IMG/VR virus record: IMGVR_UViG_3300029184_000028
Reading direction: 5' to 3' (one strand)
From: a virus
Lineage: Duplodnaviria; Heunggongvirae; Uroviricota; Caudoviricetes
DNA length: 8,176 bases
This document shows positions 146 to 8,176 of this stretch, piece by piece. The translations under genes and the position numbers were made by a program. The notes under the pieces are model-generated. The model searched no databases. It had not been told where the DNA came from and worked only from the letters and a program-made list of their open reading frames with translations. Position 1 is the first letter of the stretch. Every line of letters begins with the position of its first letter.

Positions 146-1141
146 TTATGGACGCATTATGGACATTCCTGACACCGGGTTAAGAGTCACAGCATCTTGT
201 AAGAAATCCGGTGCAAAGTGTGCGTAGGTCATAGTTTGCTGAATGTTAGAATGACCCAGGATGCGCTGCAATGTGATTATGTTACCTCCATTCATTATAA
301 AATGTGTGGCAAATGTATGCCTCAAAACATGTACTGCTTGTCCGTCAGGTAAATCGGGTTTTACTTCCCTGAGAGCGTTACGCACTTTGTAGTAACTGGC
401 ATTAAAAAGCCTGCCTGAATTTTTGGTCTTGATCCGTTTAATCAGGTCCTGCGAAACGGGAATTGTCCTGCGTTTTCCGTTTTTAGTTTTCATAAACGTA
501 ACCATCTGGTTAATGATGTGTTCAGCTTTTAAATTAGACACTTCACTCCAGCGTCCACCAGTAGAAAGGCAGACCAGAGTTGCATTTAATTCATCACCAT
601 CAAGCATGGATAACAGCCGCGTAATCTCTTCACTGGACAAAAAAGCCATTTCCGTAACAGCTTCACGTAACCGTTTAATCTCACGGAACGGGTTGTGGGA
701 GTGGTATTCACCGGCGTCAATTAACTTGGTGAACATCCCGCTCATTATTGCCAGATGTCGATTTACGCTGGCTGGTTTTAGACCATCGTTCATCATTACA
801 ACGCGATAATCAGTTATCGTTTTCTTTGTTAGCTGGTCAGCTCTGGACACTCCCATTTCTGCAAATTTGGCGATTATTGTCGTTAAACGCCCCCGTTCAA
901 TATCTCCACGCTCATGTGATTTTCCGTGATATATCCACCATCTACCTAACAACTCTGTAAGAGTTCGGCGGTCGGCTGGTTTCTCCAACCACTCTTTGTT
1001 GTGGTAGTTAACCAGTACATGACGTTCGAATGCCTGAGCTTCACCTTTAGTTTTAAATTTCCGCCTGATACGTTTTCCATCTGCACCCTGCGGTCTGACG
1101 TCCACTTCATAACGACCATCATCGAGCTTTTTAATAGACAT
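146..1141 (-). CDS. int: Tyrosine-type site-specific integrase (P2-like Int), 331 aa
   Basis: Full ORF with ATG at 1139-1141 preceded by GGAGG at spacing 5; stop TAA at 146-148. C-terminal tyrosine-recombinase signature is visible: TGGRWSE (box I Arg), HVLRHTFATHF (HxxR) and LGHSNIQQTMTYAHF (catalytic Tyr region). Position next to the repressor matches the P2 int-C arrangement. Confidence 0.92.
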   Translation of the reverse strand: MSIKKLDDGRYEVDVRPQGADGKRIRRKFKTKGEAQAFERHVLVNYHNKEWLEKPADRRTLTELLGRWWIYHGKSHERGDIERGRLTTIIAKFAEMGVSRADQLTKKTITDYRVVMMNDGLKPASVNRHLAIMSGMFTKLIDAGEYHSHNPFREIKRLREAVTEMAFLSSEEITRLLSMLDGDELNATLVCLSTGGRWSEVSNLKAEHIINQMVTFMKTKNGKRRTIPVSQDLIKRIKTKNSGRLFNASYYKVRNALREVKPDLPDGQAVHVLRHTFATHFIMNGGNIITLQRILGHSNIQQTMTYAHFAPDFLQDAVTLNPVSGMSIMRP

Positions 1142-3488: not shown

Positions 3489-3760
3489 GTATTCGTATTG
3501 AAATTGGCGAACGTTATGTCGTTACCAGTGACAGCTTTCAGTTTATTCTCCACGAGAAAAAGAGAGCTGAAAGCGGTAAAAACGCCGGTCAGGAATGGCT
3601 GGCGGTGGTTGGTTATTACCCGAAATTAAGCCAGCTCGTTTCCGGCCTGATGCATCACGATATTCTGACCGGAAGCGCAAAGTCTTTTGCTGATTTAAAC
3701 GCGCAGGTTGAGCAACTCAGCAAGCGTTGTTCAGAGGCTTTTGGCTCATATGGCCGTTAA
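3485..3760 (+). CDS. Hypothetical small early protein (91 aa; P2 orf83 position)
   Basis: ATG 3485 preceded by GGAG at 3473-3476. Stop TAA at 3758-3760 overlaps the likely start of A. No recognisable motif. Confidence 0.6.
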   Translation: MSIRIEIGERYVVTSDSFQFILHEKKRAESGKNAGQEWLAVVGYYPKLSQLVSGLMHHDILTGSAKSFADLNAQVEQLSKRCSEAFGSYGR

Positions 3761-6056
3761 AGCCTCCGGGCGTTTTGTCCCTCCGTCAGTATTTGCCGCA
3801 GGCACCGGTGAGACGTTTACCGGTGCTTATGCATGGAACGCGCCACGCGAGGCCGTCGGGCGCGAAAGACCCCTTACACGTGACGAGATGCGTCAGGTGC
3901 AAGGTGTTTTATCCACGATTAATCGCCTGCCTTACTTTTTGCGCTCGCTGTTTACTTCACGCTATGACTACATCCGGCGCAATAAAAGCCCGGTGCACGG
4001 GTTTTATTTCCTCACATCCACTTTTCAGCGCCGTTTATGGCCGCGTATTGAGCGCGTGAATCAGCGCCATGAAATGAATACCGACGCGTCGTTGCTGTTT
4101 CTGGCAGAGCGTGACCATTATGCGCGTCTGCCGGGGATGAATGACAAGGAGCTGAAAAAGTTTGCCGCCCGTATCTCATCGCAGCTTTTCATGATGTATG
4201 AGGAACTCTGCGATGCATGGGTTGATGCACATGGCGAGAAAGAATCGCTGTTTACAGATGAGGCGCAGGCGCATCTGTATGGTCATGTTGCTGGCGCTGC
4301 ACGTGCTTTCAATATTTCCCCTCTCTACTGGAAAAAATACCGTAAAGGACAGATGACCACGAGGCAGGCATATTCTGCCATTGCCCGTCTGTTTAACGAT
4401 GAGTGGTGGACTCATCAGCTTAAAGGCCAGCGTATGCGCTGGCATGAGGCGTTACTGATTGCTGTCGGGGAGGTCAATAAAGACCGTTCTCCTTATGCCA
4501 GTAAACACGCCATTCGTGATGTGCGTGCGCGCCGCCAGGCAAATCTGGAATTTCTTAAATCGTGTGACCTTGAAAACAGGGAAACCGGCGAGCGCATCGA
4601 CCTTATCAGTAAGGTGATGGGCAGTATTTCTAATCCTGAAATTCGCCGGATGGAGCTGATGAACACCATTGCCGGTATTGAGCGTTACGCCGCCGCAGAG
4701 GGTGATGTGGGGATGTTTATCACGCTGACCGCGCCGTCAAAGTATCACCCGACTCGTCAGGTCAGAAAAGGCGAAAGTAAAACCGTTAAGCTTAATCACG
4801 GCTGGAACGATGAGGCATTTAATCCAAAGGATGCGCAGCGTTATCTCTGCCGCATCTGGAGCCTGATGCGCACGGCATTCAAGGATAATGATTTACAGGT
4901 CTACGGTTTGCGTGTCGTCGAGCCACACCACGACGGAACGCCGCACTGGCATATGATGCTTTTTTGTAATCCACGCCAGCGTAACCAGATTATCGAAATC
5001 ATGCGTCGCTATGCGCTCAAAGAGGATGGCGACGAAAGAGGAGCCGCGCGAAACCGTTTTCAGGCAAAGCACCTTAACCGGGGCGGTGCTGCGGGATATA
5101 TCGCGAAATACATTTCAAAAAATATCGACGGCTATGCACTAGATGGTCAGCTCGATAACGATACCGGTAAGCCGCTTAAAGATACTGCCGCGGCTGTTAC
5201 CGCATGGGCGTCAACGTGGCGCATCCCGCAATTTAAAACGGTTGGACTGCCGACAATGGGGGCTTACCGTGAACTACGCAAATTGCCTCGCGGCGTCAGT
5301 ATTGCTGATGAGTTTGACGAACGCGTCGAGGCTGCTCGCGCTGCCGCAGACAGTGGTGATTTTGCGTTGTATATCAGCGCGCAGGGTGGGGCAAATGTCC
5401 CGCGCGATTGCCAGACTGTCAGGGTCGCCCGTAGCCCGTCGGATGACGTTAACGAGTACGAGGAAGAAGTCGAGAGAGTGGTCGGCATTTACGCGCCGCA
5501 TCTCGGCGCGCGTCATATTCATATCACCAGAACGACGGACTGGCGCATTGTTCCGAAAGTGCCGGTCGTTGAGCCTTTAACTTTAAAAAGCGGCATCGCC
5601 GCGCCTCGGAGTCCTGTCAATAACTGTGGAAAGCTCACCGGTGGTGATACTTCGTTACCGGCTCCCACACCTTCTGAGCACGCCGCAGCAGTGCTTAATC
5701 TGGTTGATGACGGTGTTATCGAATGGAATGACCCGGAGGTCGTGAGGGCGCTCAGGGGCGCATTAAAACACGGCCTGAGAACACCAAACCGTCAGCAAAG
5801 AAACGGAAGCCCGTTAAAACCGAATGAAATAGCGCCATCGGCCAGGCTGACCCGGTCGGAGCGTATGCAAATTACCCGTATCCGTGTTGACCTTGCTCAG
5901 AACGGCATCTGGCCTCAGCGATGGGAACTTGAGGCGCTGGCGCGTGGCGCGACCGTAAATTATGACGGGAAAAAATTCACGTATCCGGTCACTGATGAGT
6001 GGCCGGGATTCTCAACAGTAATGGAGTGGACATCATGGCAAAAATTCACGAGGTAA
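3750..6056 (+). CDS. A: Replication initiation endonuclease A (HUH-superfamily rolling-circle initiator, ~769 aa from ATG 3750; ORF track starts at TTG 3708)
   Basis: HUH-type metal-binding motif EPHHDGTPHWHMMLF and a paired-tyrosine active site AGYIAKYISKNIDG (Y-x3-Y), as in phiX174 gpA / P2 A nickases. Length is close to P2 A (761 aa) and the gene is last in the early operon. Stop TAA at 6054-6056. Confidence 0.92.
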   Translation: MAVKASGRFVPPSVFAAGTGETFTGAYAWNAPREAVGRERPLTRDEMRQVQGVLSTINRLPYFLRSLFTSRYDYIRRNKSPVHGFYFLTSTFQRRLWPRIERVNQRHEMNTDASLLFLAERDHYARLPGMNDKELKKFAARISSQLFMMYEELCDAWVDAHGEKESLFTDEAQAHLYGHVAGAARAFNISPLYWKKYRKGQMTTRQAYSAIARLFNDEWWTHQLKGQRMRWHEALLIAVGEVNKDRSPYASKHAIRDVRARRQANLEFLKSCDLENRETGERIDLISKVMGSISNPEIRRMELMNTIAGIERYAAAEGDVGMFITLTAPSKYHPTRQVRKGESKTVKLNHGWNDEAFNPKDAQRYLCRIWSLMRTAFKDNDLQVYGLRVVEPHHDGTPHWHMMLFCNPRQRNQIIEIMRRYALKEDGDERGAARNRFQAKHLNRGGAAGYIAKYISKNIDGYALDGQLDNDTGKPLKDTAAAVTAWASTWRIPQFKTVGLPTMGAYRELRKLPRGVSIADEFDERVEAARAAADSGDFALYISAQGGANVPRDCQTVRVARSPSDDVNEYEEEVERVVGIYAPHLGARHIHITRTTDWRIVPKVPVVEPLTLKSGIAAPRSPVNNCGKLTGGDTSLPAPTPSEHAAAVLNLVDDGVIEWNDPEVVRALRGALKHGLRTPNRQQRNGSPLKPNEIAPSARLTRSERMQITRIRVDLAQNGIWPQRWELEALARGATVNYDGKKFTYPVTDEWPGFSTVMEWTSWQKFTR
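5601..5620 (+). other. Putative origin of replication / A-protein nick site inside the A coding sequence
   Basis: Sequence GCGCCTCGGAGTCCTGTCAA matches my recollection of the P2 ori nick region, which is known to lie within gene A. Recalled, not checked against a database. Confidence 0.45.
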
Positions 6057-6487
6057 AGCTTCACGCAAAATATTTCGACCTTGTGCTGGAAGGAAAGAAA
6101 CGTGCAGAGTTTCGGAAAAATGACCGTAATTATGAGCGCGGGGACACGCTGATTTTGCATGAATGGGTGCAGGGTGTGTTTACGGGGCGAAAGGTTGAAG
6201 CCCGGATAACAGATGTTACTGACCTGTCAGACTGGCTGGAAGATTATGTCTTGCTAAGTATTGAGCTGCTTAATACAAGCGCATATGAGATTGTGAACTG
6301 GAAAGAACTTAGTGAGCGTGGTCTGGTATTCAGAATTAATCATGAAATTATGCATCAGCTCGGCCTTGCTGTTATGTATGAACCAGAGACGGGGATGTCT
6401 GGCGGGGCAATGGTTGCCACGGATGGAGCATGGAACTATTCAGATGAACAGATTGAGAGTGCAAAGCAAAACGGGTGGCTTGGATAA
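6035..6487 (+). CDS. DUF3850/ASCH-like protein with unassigned C-terminal extension (~150 aa)
   Basis: ATG 6035 preceded by GGAG at 6023-6026 (spacing 8); overlaps the end of A by 22 nt. N-terminal segment KLHAKYFDLVLEGKKRAEFRKNDRNYERGDTLILHEW resembles the DUF3850/ASCH fold signature. Stop TAA at 6485-6487. Confidence 0.6.
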   Translation: MAKIHEVKLHAKYFDLVLEGKKRAEFRKNDRNYERGDTLILHEWVQGVFTGRKVEARITDVTDLSDWLEDYVLLSIELLNTSAYEIVNWKELSERGLVFRINHEIMHQLGLAVMYEPETGMSGGAMVATDGAWNYSDEQIESAKQNGWLG

Positions 6488-6693
6488 TGCACGGAATACC
6501 AGGCGAGATACCGCAACATAACACTAAAAATATCAAGCTGATGGCTATTGTTCACCGTCTACAGCAGATTATGGTCAACGAAAATCTGACGCCTGACGAG
6601 CTGGTCGGGTGTGCTGAAATAGTCCGGGATAATTACGGGCGGTTTAACTATATCGGTCAGTCCAGAGTTGCGCCACCACCACGCAGACGATAG
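6487..6693 (+). CDS. Small hypothetical protein (68 aa), translationally coupled to the upstream gene
   Basis: ATG 6487 overlaps the upstream stop (TAATG). No RBS of its own and no recognisable motif. Alternative in-frame ATG at 6541. Could be a gene remnant. Confidence 0.3.
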   Translation: MHGIPGEIPQHNTKNIKLMAIVHRLQQIMVNENLTPDELVGCAEIVRDNYGRFNYIGQSRVAPPPRRR

Positions 6694-6766
6694 AGAACGC
6701 CGCCAGTCGTGAAACTTGTTTTCAGGGCTGGCGGGGTTGAACAACGAGCGAAGTGAGGCGTTAGCA

Positions 6767-7708
6767 TTAAGTTAATTTTAATGAATGGTACTCTATCGAG
6801 CTGATTGTAGATGCGATATATTTACGATCATTTACAGAGAGTATTGCCGCTAGTAGACGACATACCAGAGCCTGCATTTGTAGCAATATATCGCTACCAT
6901 ATTGACAATCATTGATACTAGAGAAACCAAGCGGTTGCCCATTAAAAATGGCTTCATGAAAATTATCATTGCGTATAACTGAAACATTACATTCATCTGT
7001 TGCCCATGACGGGATTTTTACACCGTAATTTTCGCACATCCAATATACTCTATTTTGATGAGATGGTTTTTTCTCTTTAATGACTTTATCCCTTTCATCC
7101 CATGCTATAGCAAAACAGCAATCAAGAGCCATATAAAGATACTGGAATTTCTCAAAGGAAAGGTATAGTGGGTTATGTGATAGGAATAGGGAGTGTATCA
7201 CCGCAGCTATTCTTTTAATGGAGCGATCATCTTTTTGTTTGTCTTTTATATAGTTAAGTGCTAGCTCTATTACTTCTTTTTCAGAGCATCCAATGAGAAT
7301 AAAGTCAGTTAACTTAGTGGGCTTGATAGTGGTTGCATCAAGAAAACCAGCGTCAGTGGTTGTCAATCTTATACCCTTGAAAAAAGAGAGGCACCACACA
7401 ACAAAGTTGAGAGTTTCTAACGAGGATGTGTTTTTTAATTTTAGTGTGTGCGTTTTGGGCATGCCGAATACTCGGTAACTATAAGGCATTGTGCATGTGT
7501 CACCATTAAGGTTATATACCTTTCGATTCCCAGGGTATATCCAACCATTAACAACGTTTTTATCATTGTTAATACGTTCCACTTTCTCAATAAGACCGGG
7601 TAAAGTACGCAAAGAAAATTGTTCAGTCTCAATGTTAACTTCTACTGGATAGTATCCAAACTCCGAAATAATCTCATTTGGTTGCTGTTCATCAACTTCA
7701 CCTTGCAT
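6767..7708 (-). CDS. Hypothetical 313-aa protein; candidate anti-phage defence / abortive-infection cargo at the P2 variable locus
   Basis: Uninterrupted 942-nt ORF with ATG (7706-7708) preceded by GGAG at spacing 6. Antisense to the early operon and convergent with it. Markedly AT-rich relative to the A gene (by eye, roughly mid-30s % GC against low-to-mid 50s). No TM segment, Walker A or other motif I can assign. Lies in the interval between the replication genes and cos. Confidence 0.8.
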   Translation of the reverse strand: MQGEVDEQQPNEIISEFGYYPVEVNIETEQFSLRTLPGLIEKVERINNDKNVVNGWIYPGNRKVYNLNGDTCTMPYSYRVFGMPKTHTLKLKNTSSLETLNFVVWCLSFFKGIRLTTTDAGFLDATTIKPTKLTDFILIGCSEKEVIELALNYIKDKQKDDRSIKRIAAVIHSLFLSHNPLYLSFEKFQYLYMALDCCFAIAWDERDKVIKEKKPSHQNRVYWMCENYGVKIPSWATDECNVSVIRNDNFHEAIFNGQPLGFSSINDCQYGSDILLQMQALVCRLLAAILSVNDRKYIASTISSIEYHSLKLT

Positions 7709-7730
7709 AACTTTCTCCGTTCAAAAACAG

Positions 7731-7800
7731 GCACGATAATTCTCGTAAGCCTATCATGTTCGCAAAGTATCCATACCTGTGGATTTTGTAAATTTAAGTT
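7731..7800 (-). promoter_or_regulatory. Putative promoter region for the 313-aa cargo gene
   Basis: Minus-strand candidates: TTGCGA - 18 nt - AATTAT, or TTTACA - 17 nt - TACTTT, upstream of the RBS. Neither is a strong consensus match. Confidence 0.3.
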
Positions 7801-7946
7801 GATTTATCATTAAATAAGCCGTTGCATGCAACAAGTGAATGTTTTTGCATGCGTCGGGGATGTCCGTTCAGGCTGCGTGCAGTCAGGACTGGTGCGGATC
7901 CATAGTATCTATGCAACTGCATTAAAACCGCCCCATGAAGCGGGCG

Positions 7947-7965
7947 GGCGAGGCGGGGAAAGCAC
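7947..7965. other. cos site: 19-nt P2/P4-type cohesive end GGCGAGGCGGGGAAAGCAC
   Basis: Exact match to the 19-nt cohesive-end sequence I recall for P2/P4/186. It is flanked on the right by G/T-rich repeats, as expected for a terminase recognition region. Confidence 0.7.
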
Positions 7966-8107
7966 TGCGCGCTGGCGGTGGTGCTGATTTTATTTTTTCA
8001 GCGTCTGAGCGCGTCGTGATGGCGTTTAGATTGTGCGCCGGGGCGTTGGTGTGTCTGCGGGGTGTTTTGTGCGGTGGTGAGCGTGTGAGGGCGTGATGAC
8101 GGGATGT

Positions 8108-8129
8108 AAAAAAGCCGCCCGCAGGCGGC
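8108..8129 (-). terminator. Rho-independent terminator for a leftward late transcript
   Basis: Read on the minus strand: GC stem GCCGCC (8124-8129 complement) / GGCGGC (8114-8119 complement) with a 4-nt loop, followed by a run of six T (plus-strand A-run 8108-8113). Sits just downstream of a minus-strand stop codon at 8135-8137. Confidence 0.7.
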
Positions 8130-8134
8130 GATGT

Positions 8135-8176
8135 TCAGCCGTTGTCAGTGTCCAGTGAGTAGTTTTTAAAGCGGAT
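8135..8176 (-). CDS. 3' end (13 codons + stop) of a leftward late gene continuing beyond the window; by P2 synteny the portal gene Q
   Basis: Minus-strand frame open from the window edge to TGA (complement of 8135-8137), reading ...IRFKNYSLDTDNG*, immediately followed by the intrinsic terminator. Identity as Q is inferred from P2 genome order only. Confidence 0.3.
   Translation of the reverse strand: MRFKNYSLDTDNG

What the first reader, a model, noticed from the sequence alone, without database searches (positions are those of the whole stretch)
7821..7922. Cluster of TGCA-centred palindromes upstream of the cargo gene
Within about 100 bp there is a perfect 12-bp palindrome GTTGCATGCAAC (7821-7832), a second TTGCATGC copy (7845-7852), CTGCGTGCAG (7873-7882) and ATGCAACTGCAT (7911-7922). 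This density of related dyad-symmetric sites suggests binding of a dimeric regulator. Location is between the putative cargo promoter and cos, so they could control cargo-gene expression or belong to the left side of the packaging site.
Basis: seen in the sequence. Interest (0 to 1): 0.5.

Follow-up and report, generated by a model that had tools for sequence, protein, structure and literature searches.

The report
P2 phage packaging-site TGCAT repeats
The cluster of TGCA motifs is the outer part of the DNA-packaging (cos) site of a P2-like phage: TGCAT pentamers kept at fixed distances from the cut site in P2, 186 and P4 relatives whatever gene lies next door, so it is a known kind of element and not a switch for the cargo gene.

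Summary
The four motifs are at the stated coordinates. Six TGCA in 100 bp is the densest cluster in the window, but only modestly above chance (10 of 1000 simulations). The window is a P2-like phage, with the 19-nt cohesive end at 7947-7965.

I anchored 214 cos flanks on the cut site and reduced them to 95 non-redundant ones, including P2, 186, PSP3 and P4. TGCAT recurs at -124/-121, -111, -101 and -29, and TGCA at -35. Background is 0.0014 per position, and the columns between the distal repeats carry almost no information. Repeats 2 and 3 are always 10 bp apart.

- **Reader sites 1 and 2** are distal repeats 1 and 3.
- **Site 4**, ATGCAACTGCAT, is a conserved dyad next to the 55-bp cos core.
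- **Site 3**, CTGCGTGCAG, occurs in 1 of 214 flanks and is chance.

The repeats persist with unrelated cargo, and in 186 and P4, where no leftward gene exists. They therefore belong to cos and are not cargo operators.

Most likely they are recognition sites for the P2 terminase, working like lambda cosB. That binding is inferred, not shown. This is a known element; the repeat architecture is under-described in the literature I could read.

The parts
7823..7827 (+). Distal TGCAT repeat 1, at -124 from the top-strand cut. It lies inside the lineage-specific 12-bp palindrome GTTGCATGCAAC (7821-7832).
   Evidence: TGCAT at -124, -121 or -120 in 60 of 95 non-redundant flanks, and 42 of 53 in the unbiased subset counting [TC]GCAT at -126..-119. 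P2, P4, 186 and PSP3 have it at -124, -123 or -120. Homology between the window and L022/L010 starts exactly here.
7836..7840 (+). Distal repeat 2, at -111.
   Evidence: TGCAT at -111 or -110 in 68 of 95 flanks. [TC]GCAT at -112..-110 in 46 of 53 of the unbiased subset. The window reads TGAAT.
7846..7850 (+). Distal repeat 3, at -101.
   Evidence: [TC]GCAT at -102..-100 in 86 of 95 flanks and 48 of 53 of the unbiased subset. It is always exactly 10 bp after repeat 2: 75 of 75 flanks that have both.
7873..7882 (.). It is not a conserved feature and is best read as chance.
   Evidence: Present in 1 of 214 flanks. Ten close relatives read CTGCGTGCGG. Only 3 of 95 flanks have any 4-2-4 dyad at this position. 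Column information there is about 0.
7884..7891 (.). CAGGACTG, a semi-conserved G+C-rich dyad (consensus GCCAGnnCTGGCG) in the spacer, at -63..-56.
   Evidence: CAGnnCTG at -63 in 26 of 95 flanks, against a background of 0.0004 per position. Information content rises and A+T falls to 0.37-0.39 at -70..-51.
7911..7922 (.). Proximal dyad ATGCAACTGCAT, at -36..-25. It abuts and overlaps the left edge of the conserved cos core.
   Evidence: ATGCAnnTGCAT in 58 of 95 flanks and TGCAnnTGCAT in 74 of 95. In the unbiased subset, TGCAT at -29 in 51 of 53 and TGCA at -35 in 39 of 53. Most of the 2132 matching E. coli genomes align from about 7911 rightwards.
7923..7946 (.). Core cos sequence TAAAACC plus the G+C-rich hairpin CCGCCCCATGAAGCGGGCGG (7928-7947), running up to the cut site.
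   Evidence: Near-invariant columns. One search lists the hairpin as terminator-like on the minus strand.
7947..7965 (+). The 19-nt cohesive-end sequence GGCGAGGCGGGGAAAGCAC. The top-strand cut is at 7946/7947 and the bottom-strand cut at 7965/7966.
   Evidence: Identical to the cosR feature annotated in P2, NC_001895 33575-33593. PMC3931495 quotes the same sequence for P2-related phages.
7966..7972 (+). [quoted passage not shown]
   Evidence: Information content stays high to +25 and then drops. P4-like flanks diverge after this point.
6767..7708 (-). Cargo ORF of 313 aa, in the variable region between gpA and cos. It is context for the feature, not part of it.
   Evidence: ORF list. No Pfam, PADLOC or NCBIfam hit. 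PHROG 5937, function unknown. The same gene sits next to a 186-type cos core in L032 and L027.
7803..7831 (-). Weak candidate cargo promoter, proposed by analogy with P2 Pold: -35 TTGCAT (7831 to 7826, the minus-strand reading of palindrome 1), 17 nt, -10 GATAAA (7808 to 7803).
   Evidence: Inference only. The geometry matches the P2 old-tin transcript starts annotated at -151/-149, with -35 TTGAAT at -120..-115. It scores 7 of 12 consensus matches and falls below the thresholds of both promoter scans.

Best explanation
The interval 7821-7922 is the right-end flank of the phage's cos packaging site.

Anatomy, relative to the cut site:
- three same-strand TGCAT pentamers at -124, -111 and -101, the last two always 10 bp apart and so on one face of the helix;
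- a spacer of fixed length, about 60 bp, with an optional GCCAGnnCTGGC dyad;
- the dyad ATGCAnnTGCAT at -36..-25;
- TAAAACC, a G+C-rich hairpin and the 19-nt cohesive-end sequence.

Proposed mechanism (inferred): the P2-type terminase, most probably its small subunit gpM as an oligomer, recognises the TGCAT elements. The distal triplet and the proximal dyad are brought together over the fixed spacer. This positions the large subunit gpP to make the staggered cuts at 7946/7947 and 7965/7966. The arrangement is comparable to lambda gpNu1 binding the R sites of cosB next to cosN. P4-like satellites carry the same array because they are packaged by the helper's terminase.

What is shown: the positions, phasing and cargo-independent conservation of the motifs, and their presence in P2, 186, PSP3 and P4.

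What is inferred: that terminase is the binding protein, which subunit binds, and whether the array acts at initiation, at termination, or at both.
For: - **Context.** Integrase, gpA, a cargo ORF, then GGCGAGGCGGGGAAAGCAC at 7947-7965, followed by the portal-gene side.
- **Reference genomes.** P2, P4, 186 and PSP3 all have TGCAT at -124 (or -123, -120), -111, -101 and -29.
- **Wide survey.** In 95 non-redundant flanks (under 75% identity over -135..-41), TGCAT is at -111 in 55 and at -110 in 13, at -101 in 53 and at -100 in 13, at -124/-121/-120 in 60, and at -29 in 93. Background is 0.0014 per position per sequence. Flanking columns carry about 0 bits.
- **Copy number.** 80 of 95 flanks have at least 2 TGCAT in -130..-93, against 3 of 570 background windows of the same size.
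- **Phasing.** Repeats 2 and 3 are 10 bp apart in 75 of 75 flanks that have both.
- **No ascertainment bias.** A subset anchored only on the core gives the same picture.
- **Independence from cargo.** The 95 flanks include 83 with a portal gene and 4 P4-like flanks with psu. Only the window's cluster carries this cargo.
- **Module border.** L022 and L010 share the window's sequence from -124 rightwards and nothing to the left.
- **No gene to regulate.** In 186 and P4 the neighbouring gene points towards cos.
- **Other genera.** HP1 has CCACGGAAA three times near its right end, and the phiCTX record annotates R4-R6 repeats across cos. This fits genus-specific terminase recognition.
- **Literature.** P2 and P4 share the cos signal because P4 uses the P2 terminase (PMC9122126). 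Longer cos flanks raised cosmid transduction by more than 1000-fold (PMC9594776). TerS binding to cosB repeats is the lambda paradigm (PMC13595911).
Against: - No binding or packaging data were produced here.
- The paper that mapped the functional cos site (Ziermann and Calendar 1990) could not be read.
- The accessible literature speaks only of a 55-bp core. The requirement for the distal triplet at -124..-97 therefore rests on conservation.
- Repeat 2 is degenerate in this very window (TGAAT).
- 4 of 95 flanks lack both repeat 2 and repeat 3, so no single repeat is indispensable.
- The array lies on the right-end side of the cut. I could not establish which end P2 packages first, so the cosB analogy (the end packaged first) may not hold in detail.
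- No IHF consensus lies in the spacer (0 of 95), unlike lambda cosB.
Confidence: 0.72

Rival explanations
1. The motifs are operators for a dimeric transcription factor that controls the leftward cargo gene (6767-7708).
For: - Site 1 is a perfect 12-bp palindrome and site 4 a 5-2-5 dyad.
- The cargo gene starts 115 bp to the left.
- In P2 the annotated old-tin transcript starts (-151/-149) imply a -35 hexamer at -120..-115, between repeats 1 and 2. The window has TTGCAT-17-GATAAA in the same geometry.
Against: - The motifs are conserved with unrelated cargo, and in 186 and P4, which have no leftward gene next to cos.
- The palindromic extensions are not conserved: the 12-mer occurs in 1 of 95 flanks, TGCATGCA in 14 of 95, and GCATGC at site 3 in 20 of 95.
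- Site 3 is unique to this sequence.
- No regulator gene travels with the motifs.
- No promoter reaches the scan thresholds.
Confidence: 0.07
2. The TGCAT elements bind a host architectural or other non-terminase protein that bends the cos region, or they act through intrinsic DNA shape. Terminase would then recognise only the 55-bp core.
For: - The fixed spacer and 10-bp phasing fit an architectural role.
- The accessible literature names only a 55-bp core as the shared P2/P4 signal.
- Lambda cosB needs host IHF, by analogy (references cited in PMC9611059).
Against: - No IHF consensus anywhere in -130..-1 (0 of 95).
- From my own knowledge, no E. coli architectural protein has a TGCAT consensus.
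- Other Peduoviridae genera carry different repeats in the same place. This fits a phage-encoded reader better than a conserved host protein.
Confidence: 0.12
3. The cluster is a chance concentration of a short palindromic tetramer, or neutral sequence inherited with the cos core, and has no function of its own.
For: - TGCAT is not enriched in the window as a whole.
- The within-window cluster is only modestly unusual (10 of 1000 simulations).
- One of the four sites is demonstrably chance.
Against: - Between -135 and -41 the flanks have diverged to under 75% identity and most columns carry about 0 bits. The pentamers nevertheless stay at fixed positions, about 400-fold above background.
Confidence: 0.03

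Closest known systems
cos site of phages P2, 186 and satellite P4 (Ziermann and Calendar 1990, Gene 96:9; '55-bp core')
   Same: - Identical 19-nt cohesive-end sequence.
- Same position, between the variable region after gpA and the portal gene.
- Same core TGCATTAAAACCGCCCC...GGCGAGGCGGGGAAAGCACTGCGCGC.
- TGCAT at -124 (or -123), -111, -101 and -29 in the P2, P4 and 186 reference genomes.
   Different: Nothing essential differs; this is another copy of that site. In this lineage repeat 2 is TGAAT and repeat 1 is extended to a 12-bp palindrome. The papers I could read describe only the 55-bp core, which runs from about -29 to +26. The distal triplet lies outside that commonly quoted core.
Lambda cosB (gpNu1 binding sites R3, R2, R1 with IHF site I1) next to cosN
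   Same: Several short repeats of one motif lie within about 125 bp of the cut site at fixed spacing. They are presumed to be read by the small terminase subunit so that the large subunit cuts nearby (paradigm as summarised in PMC13595911).
   Different: - No sequence homology.
- The motif is 5 bp rather than 16 bp.
- No IHF consensus.
- The array lies on the right-end side of the cut.
- P2 packages monomeric circles (my own knowledge, not tested here).
- Binding by gpM is untested.
Repeats flanking cos in other Peduoviridae (HP1; phiCTX R4-R6)
   Same: Short direct repeats within about 110 bp of the right end. HP1 has CCACGGAAA three times, with spacings of 64 and 30 bp. The phiCTX record annotates repeats R4-R6 spanning cos.
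   Different: The motifs and spacings differ. I examined only one genome of each.
P2 Pold promoter (old-tin transcript)
   Same: It is a leftward promoter for the cargo next to cos. Its inferred -35 hexamer lies at -120..-115, inside the distal TGCAT array. The window offers TTGCAT-17-GATAAA in the same place.
   Different: The window's hexamers are weak (7 of 12 consensus matches) and fall below the scan thresholds. No transcript start is known for this cargo gene.

Membership tests
P2-type cos packaging site | 19-nt G+C-rich cohesive-end sequence GGCGAGGCGGGGAAAGCAC | tested here: met
   Exact match at 7947-7965. Identical to the annotated P2 cosR.
P2-type cos packaging site | Location between the gpA/variable region and the leftward portal gene Q of a P2-like genome | tested here: met
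   gpA (PF05840) at 3708-6056 and integrase at 146-1141. The portal gene lies directly to the right in near-identical records.
P2-type cos packaging site | Conserved core shared by P2 and P4 (about 55 bp around the cohesive ends) | tested here: met
   The alignment with P2, P4 and 186 is near-invariant from about -36 to +25.
P2-type cos packaging site | Distal TGCAT repeats at about -124, -111 and -101, with 10-bp phasing of the last two (a feature defined here) | tested here: met
   The window has TGCAT at -124 and -101 and TGAAT at -111. For family frequencies.
P2-type cos packaging site | Cleaved and packaged by gpM/gpP terminase | not testable with these tools
   This needs transduction or in vitro cleavage assays.
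   Distal sites are conserved as same-strand TGCAT. The 12-bp palindrome occurs in 1 of 95 flanks and site 3 in 1 of 214. Only the proximal ATGCAnnTGCAT dyad is conserved, in 58 of 95.
   Present with unrelated cargo and in 186 and P4, which have no leftward gene.
Lambda-type cosB (small-terminase binding array) | Repeated motif at fixed distances from the cut site | tested here: met
Lambda-type cosB (small-terminase binding array) | IHF site or bend between the repeats | tested here: not met
   No WATCAANNNNTTR match in -130..-1 in 0 of 95 flanks. Intrinsic bending was not tested.
Lambda-type cosB (small-terminase binding array) | Direct binding by the small terminase subunit | not testable with these tools
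   This needs EMSA or footprinting with gpM.

The most novel reading that the evidence does not exclude
The TGCAT array is the long-missing cosB of the P2 family. It would be a phased set of pentamers read by gpM, in which only the pentamers and their spacing are under selection. Each cargo cassette that recombines in next to cos would have to bring or keep its own copy of the distal array.

Cargo promoters of the Pold type sit inside the array. Terminase loading late in infection could therefore shut off the defence cargo, and transcription in the lysogen could keep the site clear. This would couple packaging and cargo expression.
Probability: 0.2. Interest if true: 0.55.

Novelty: already known. 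Interest (0 to 1): 0.3.

Why it matters
The result settles what the motifs are. They mark the functional extent of the packaging site, about -124 to +26, and not a cargo switch.

Practical and evolutionary consequences:
- **Hotspot border.** It defines the right-hand border of the P2 defence-gene hotspot. Cargo can be swapped up to -125, or a swapped-in segment must carry its own TGCAT array.
- **Cosmid design.** It gives a concrete explanation for why P2/P4 cosmids with only a short cos fragment transduce poorly (PMC9594776).
- **Testable target.** It offers a simple motif for gpM recognition and for P4's piracy of the helper terminase.
- **Annotation.** Short ORFs called across this interval in public records are almost certainly spurious.

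Tried and rejected
- **Promoter scans.** The sigma-70 scan of 6600-8176 found no promoter between the cargo start and cos. My own scan of the minus strand found only three 8-of-12 candidates, none at the palindromes. The cargo promoter stays unlocated.
- **IHF.** No consensus site in any of the 95 flanks.
- **Rfam.** Only one chance hit far below its gathering score, and outside the interval.
- **Cargo protein.** No Pfam, PADLOC or NCBIfam match. PHROGs gives only a family of unknown function.
- **Other binding sites, by eye.** A sigma-54 promoter (the TGCAT pairs lack the GG of the -24 element and the spacing is off by one), P2 Cox boxes, Ogr/Delta sites and NtrC sites. None fits.
- **Literature.**
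  - Ziermann and Calendar 1990, Christie and Calendar 2016, and Lindqvist et al. 1993 are not held.
  - A full-text search for TGCAT with terminase and cos found nothing relevant.
  - The supplement of PMC9594776 holds no cos sequences.
  - The small-terminase review hits for 'P2' were all P22.
- **Technical failures.** In one search I gave wrong coordinates for L032, so that row is uninformative. The L022, P2 and P4 rows are valid.

Full report
**Observation.** Only the first is a perfect palindrome. The third and fourth are short inverted repeats around a 2-nt centre. TGCAT is not enriched in the window as a whole (33 found, 27.7 expected). The 100 bases from 7823 hold six TGCA, the densest such stretch in the window. 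Ten of 1000 first-order Markov simulations reach that density. On its own the cluster is therefore only mildly unusual.

**Context.** The window is a P2-like (Peduovirus) genome:
- integrase at 146-1141 (minus strand) and replication protein gpA at 3708-6056;
- a 313-aa leftward ORF of unknown function at 6767-7708, with no Pfam, PADLOC or NCBIfam hit and only PHROG 5937;
- the P2 cohesive-end sequence GGCGAGGCGGGGAAAGCAC at 7947-7965, identical to the cosR feature of NC_001895;
- the portal-gene side to the right.

I number positions from the top-strand cut at 7946/7947. The finding then spans -126 to -25.

**First comparative evidence.** A BLAST of 7700-8176 against phage records found 119 records. 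Most Peduovirus records align only from about 7904-7913 rightwards. 186-like (Eganvirus), Klebsiella and Yersinia phages align at about 74% from about 7817-7823 rightwards, although their upstream genes (tum, orf97) are unrelated and point towards cos. The right ends of the reference genomes P2, P4, 186 and PSP3 all carry TGCAT at -124 (-123 in P2, -120 in PSP3), -111, -101 and -29.

**Wide survey.** Two exact-pattern scans of IMG/VR gave 214 oriented cos flanks. The second scan was anchored only on the core right of -9. I reduced them to 95 flanks sharing under 75% identity over -135..-41.

| Position | Motif | Flanks of 95 |
|---|---|---|
| -111 / -110 | TGCAT | 55 / 13 |
| -101 / -100 | TGCAT | 53 / 13 |
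| -124 / -121 / -120 | TGCAT | 30 / 18 / 12 |
| -29 | TGCAT | 93 |
| -35 | TGCA | 75 |

- Background is 0.0014 per position per sequence, and neighbouring columns carry almost no information.
- Eighty of 95 flanks have at least two TGCAT in -130..-93, against 3 of 570 background windows of equal size.
- Repeats 2 and 3 are exactly 10 bp apart in all 75 flanks that have both. When one shifts by a base, so does the other.
- Restricting to the 53 non-redundant flanks from the unbiased second scan gives 51, 39, 48, 46 and 42 of 53 for the -29, -35, -101, -111 and -124 sites.
- The 95 flanks include 83 with a portal gene and 4 P4-like flanks with psu. Only the window's own cluster carries this cargo gene.
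- L022 and L010 are 96% identical to the window from -124 to -1 and unrelated further left, so the border of the shared module falls exactly at repeat 1.
- Among 5426 complete E. coli genomes, 2132 carry a match. Most match only from about 7911 rightwards, and 96 have the same cargo.

- Sites 1 and 2 are distal repeats 1 and 3 of a triplet. Its middle member is degenerate in this lineage (TGAAT, 7836-7840) and was overlooked.
- Their palindromic extensions are lineage-specific. The 12-mer occurs in 1 of 95 flanks, TGCATGCA in 14, and GCATGC at repeat 3 in 20.
- Site 4 is a truly conserved dyad. ATGCAnnTGCAT occurs in 58 of 95 flanks and TGCAnnTGCAT in 74.
- Site 3 is found in 1 of 214 flanks. 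Ten close relatives read CTGCGTGCGG, so it is chance.
- Just to its right lies a semi-conserved G+C-rich dyad. CAGnnCTG is at -63 in 26 of 95 flanks, which is 7884-7891 in the window.

**Mechanism.** The outcome places the motifs in cos.
[quoted passage not shown] Terminase is therefore the obvious common reader of the motif.
- I propose that gpM, the small subunit, binds the phased TGCAT elements, and that the distal triplet and proximal dyad cooperate across the fixed spacer to place gpP at the cut sites. This would work like gpNu1 on lambda cosB (PMC13595911).
- That longer cos flanks raised P2 cosmid transduction by more than 1000-fold (PMC9594776) fits this model. The sequences of those cosmids were not available to me.
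- HP1 and phiCTX carry different short repeats in the equivalent place, as expected if each genus has its own terminase recognition motif.
- Binding, the subunit involved, and whether the array acts at initiation or termination are inferred, not shown.
- There is no IHF consensus in the spacer, so the lambda analogy is functional only.

**Cargo expression.** A regulator-operator reading is not supported:
- The distal symmetry is not conserved.
- The motifs do not follow the cargo.
- 186 and P4 have no leftward gene beside cos.

A secondary link remains possible. The P2 record annotates old-tin transcript starts at -151/-149, which implies -10 TAAAAA and -35 TTGAAT at -120..-115, inside the array. 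The window offers TTGCAT-17-GATAAA in the same geometry. This is weak (7 of 12) and falls below both promoter scans.

**Comparison with what is known, and novelty.** This is the cos site of a P2-like phage, a known and functionally mapped element (Ziermann and Calendar 1990, which I could not read). Papers available to me quote only a 55-bp core. By my alignment that core runs from about -29 to +26. The distal TGCAT triplet therefore lies outside what is usually cited, and I found no description of it. From memory only, the 1990 paper defined a functional fragment of about 125 bp, which would match -124..+1 or so. This needs checking.

I rate the feature as already known, with a modest extra: an explicit, testable motif architecture. 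Interest 0.3.

Noticed in passing
window 6767-7708 (minus strand); L032 and L027: The 313-aa cargo protein has no Pfam, PADLOC or NCBIfam match and only PHROG 5937 (function unknown). The same gene, at about 82% DNA identity, sits next to a 186-type cos core (GGCGTGG...GCAT) in two IMG/VR contigs. It also occurs in 96 complete E. coli genomes. It is therefore a mobile cargo of the P2 hotspot with an unassigned function, and possibly an undescribed defence gene.
   Followed up: partly
window 7928-7947 (minus strand): The G+C-rich hairpin of the cos core is followed on the minus strand by TTTTAATGCA and scores as an intrinsic terminator. It could stop leftward read-through from the portal operon into the cargo region in the circular or prophage form.
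   Followed up: no
window 8114-8131 (minus strand): A strong terminator-like hairpin, GCCGCCTGCGGGCGGC followed by TTTTTT, lies just after the expected end of the portal gene Q.
   Followed up: no
L022 4190-4314 and L010 (IMG/VR contigs): These contigs share the window's cos flank from exactly -124 to +25 at 96% identity, but have unrelated DNA on both sides. On the right, TGCGCGC is followed by GAGGCCTGCAACC instead of the usual portal-side sequence. The -124..+25 block behaves as a portable module.
   Followed up: partly
L240 547-652 (HP1 right end); L238 (phiCTX right end): HP1 has three copies of CCACGGAAA within 110 bp of its right end, with spacings of 64 and 30 bp. The phiCTX record annotates repeats R4-R6 spanning cos. 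Other Peduoviridae genera seem to have their own cos-flank repeats.
   Followed up: partly
L005 2425-2484 (P2 NC_001895 33424-33483): From the annotated transcript starts, the P2 old-tin promoter has its -35 hexamer (TTGAAT) between distal TGCAT repeats 1 and 2. In P2 the cargo promoter is therefore embedded in the packaging signal.
   Followed up: partly
L002 1766-1927 (ON470606.1) and window ORFs 7826-7987 (+), 7935-8096 (+), 7794-7922 (-): Public records annotate small hypothetical proteins in the cos region. The corresponding window ORFs lie in or across the cos site. The conservation pattern there (pentamers only) is not that of coding sequence, so these are probably spurious calls. ON470606.1 also has a run of N across the cos core.
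   Followed up: no
L241 226-1454 (E. coli 2013C-4830, NZ_CP027325.1): In the closest E. coli prophage (99.5% identity over 7560-7970), an IS2 element is inserted just beyond the 3' end of the cargo gene, between it and the DUF3850 gene.
   Followed up: no
window 5999-6487 (plus strand): The ORF after gpA combines an ASCH/DUF3850 domain with DUF7415. PHROGs relates it to RNA-binding proteins.
   Followed up: no
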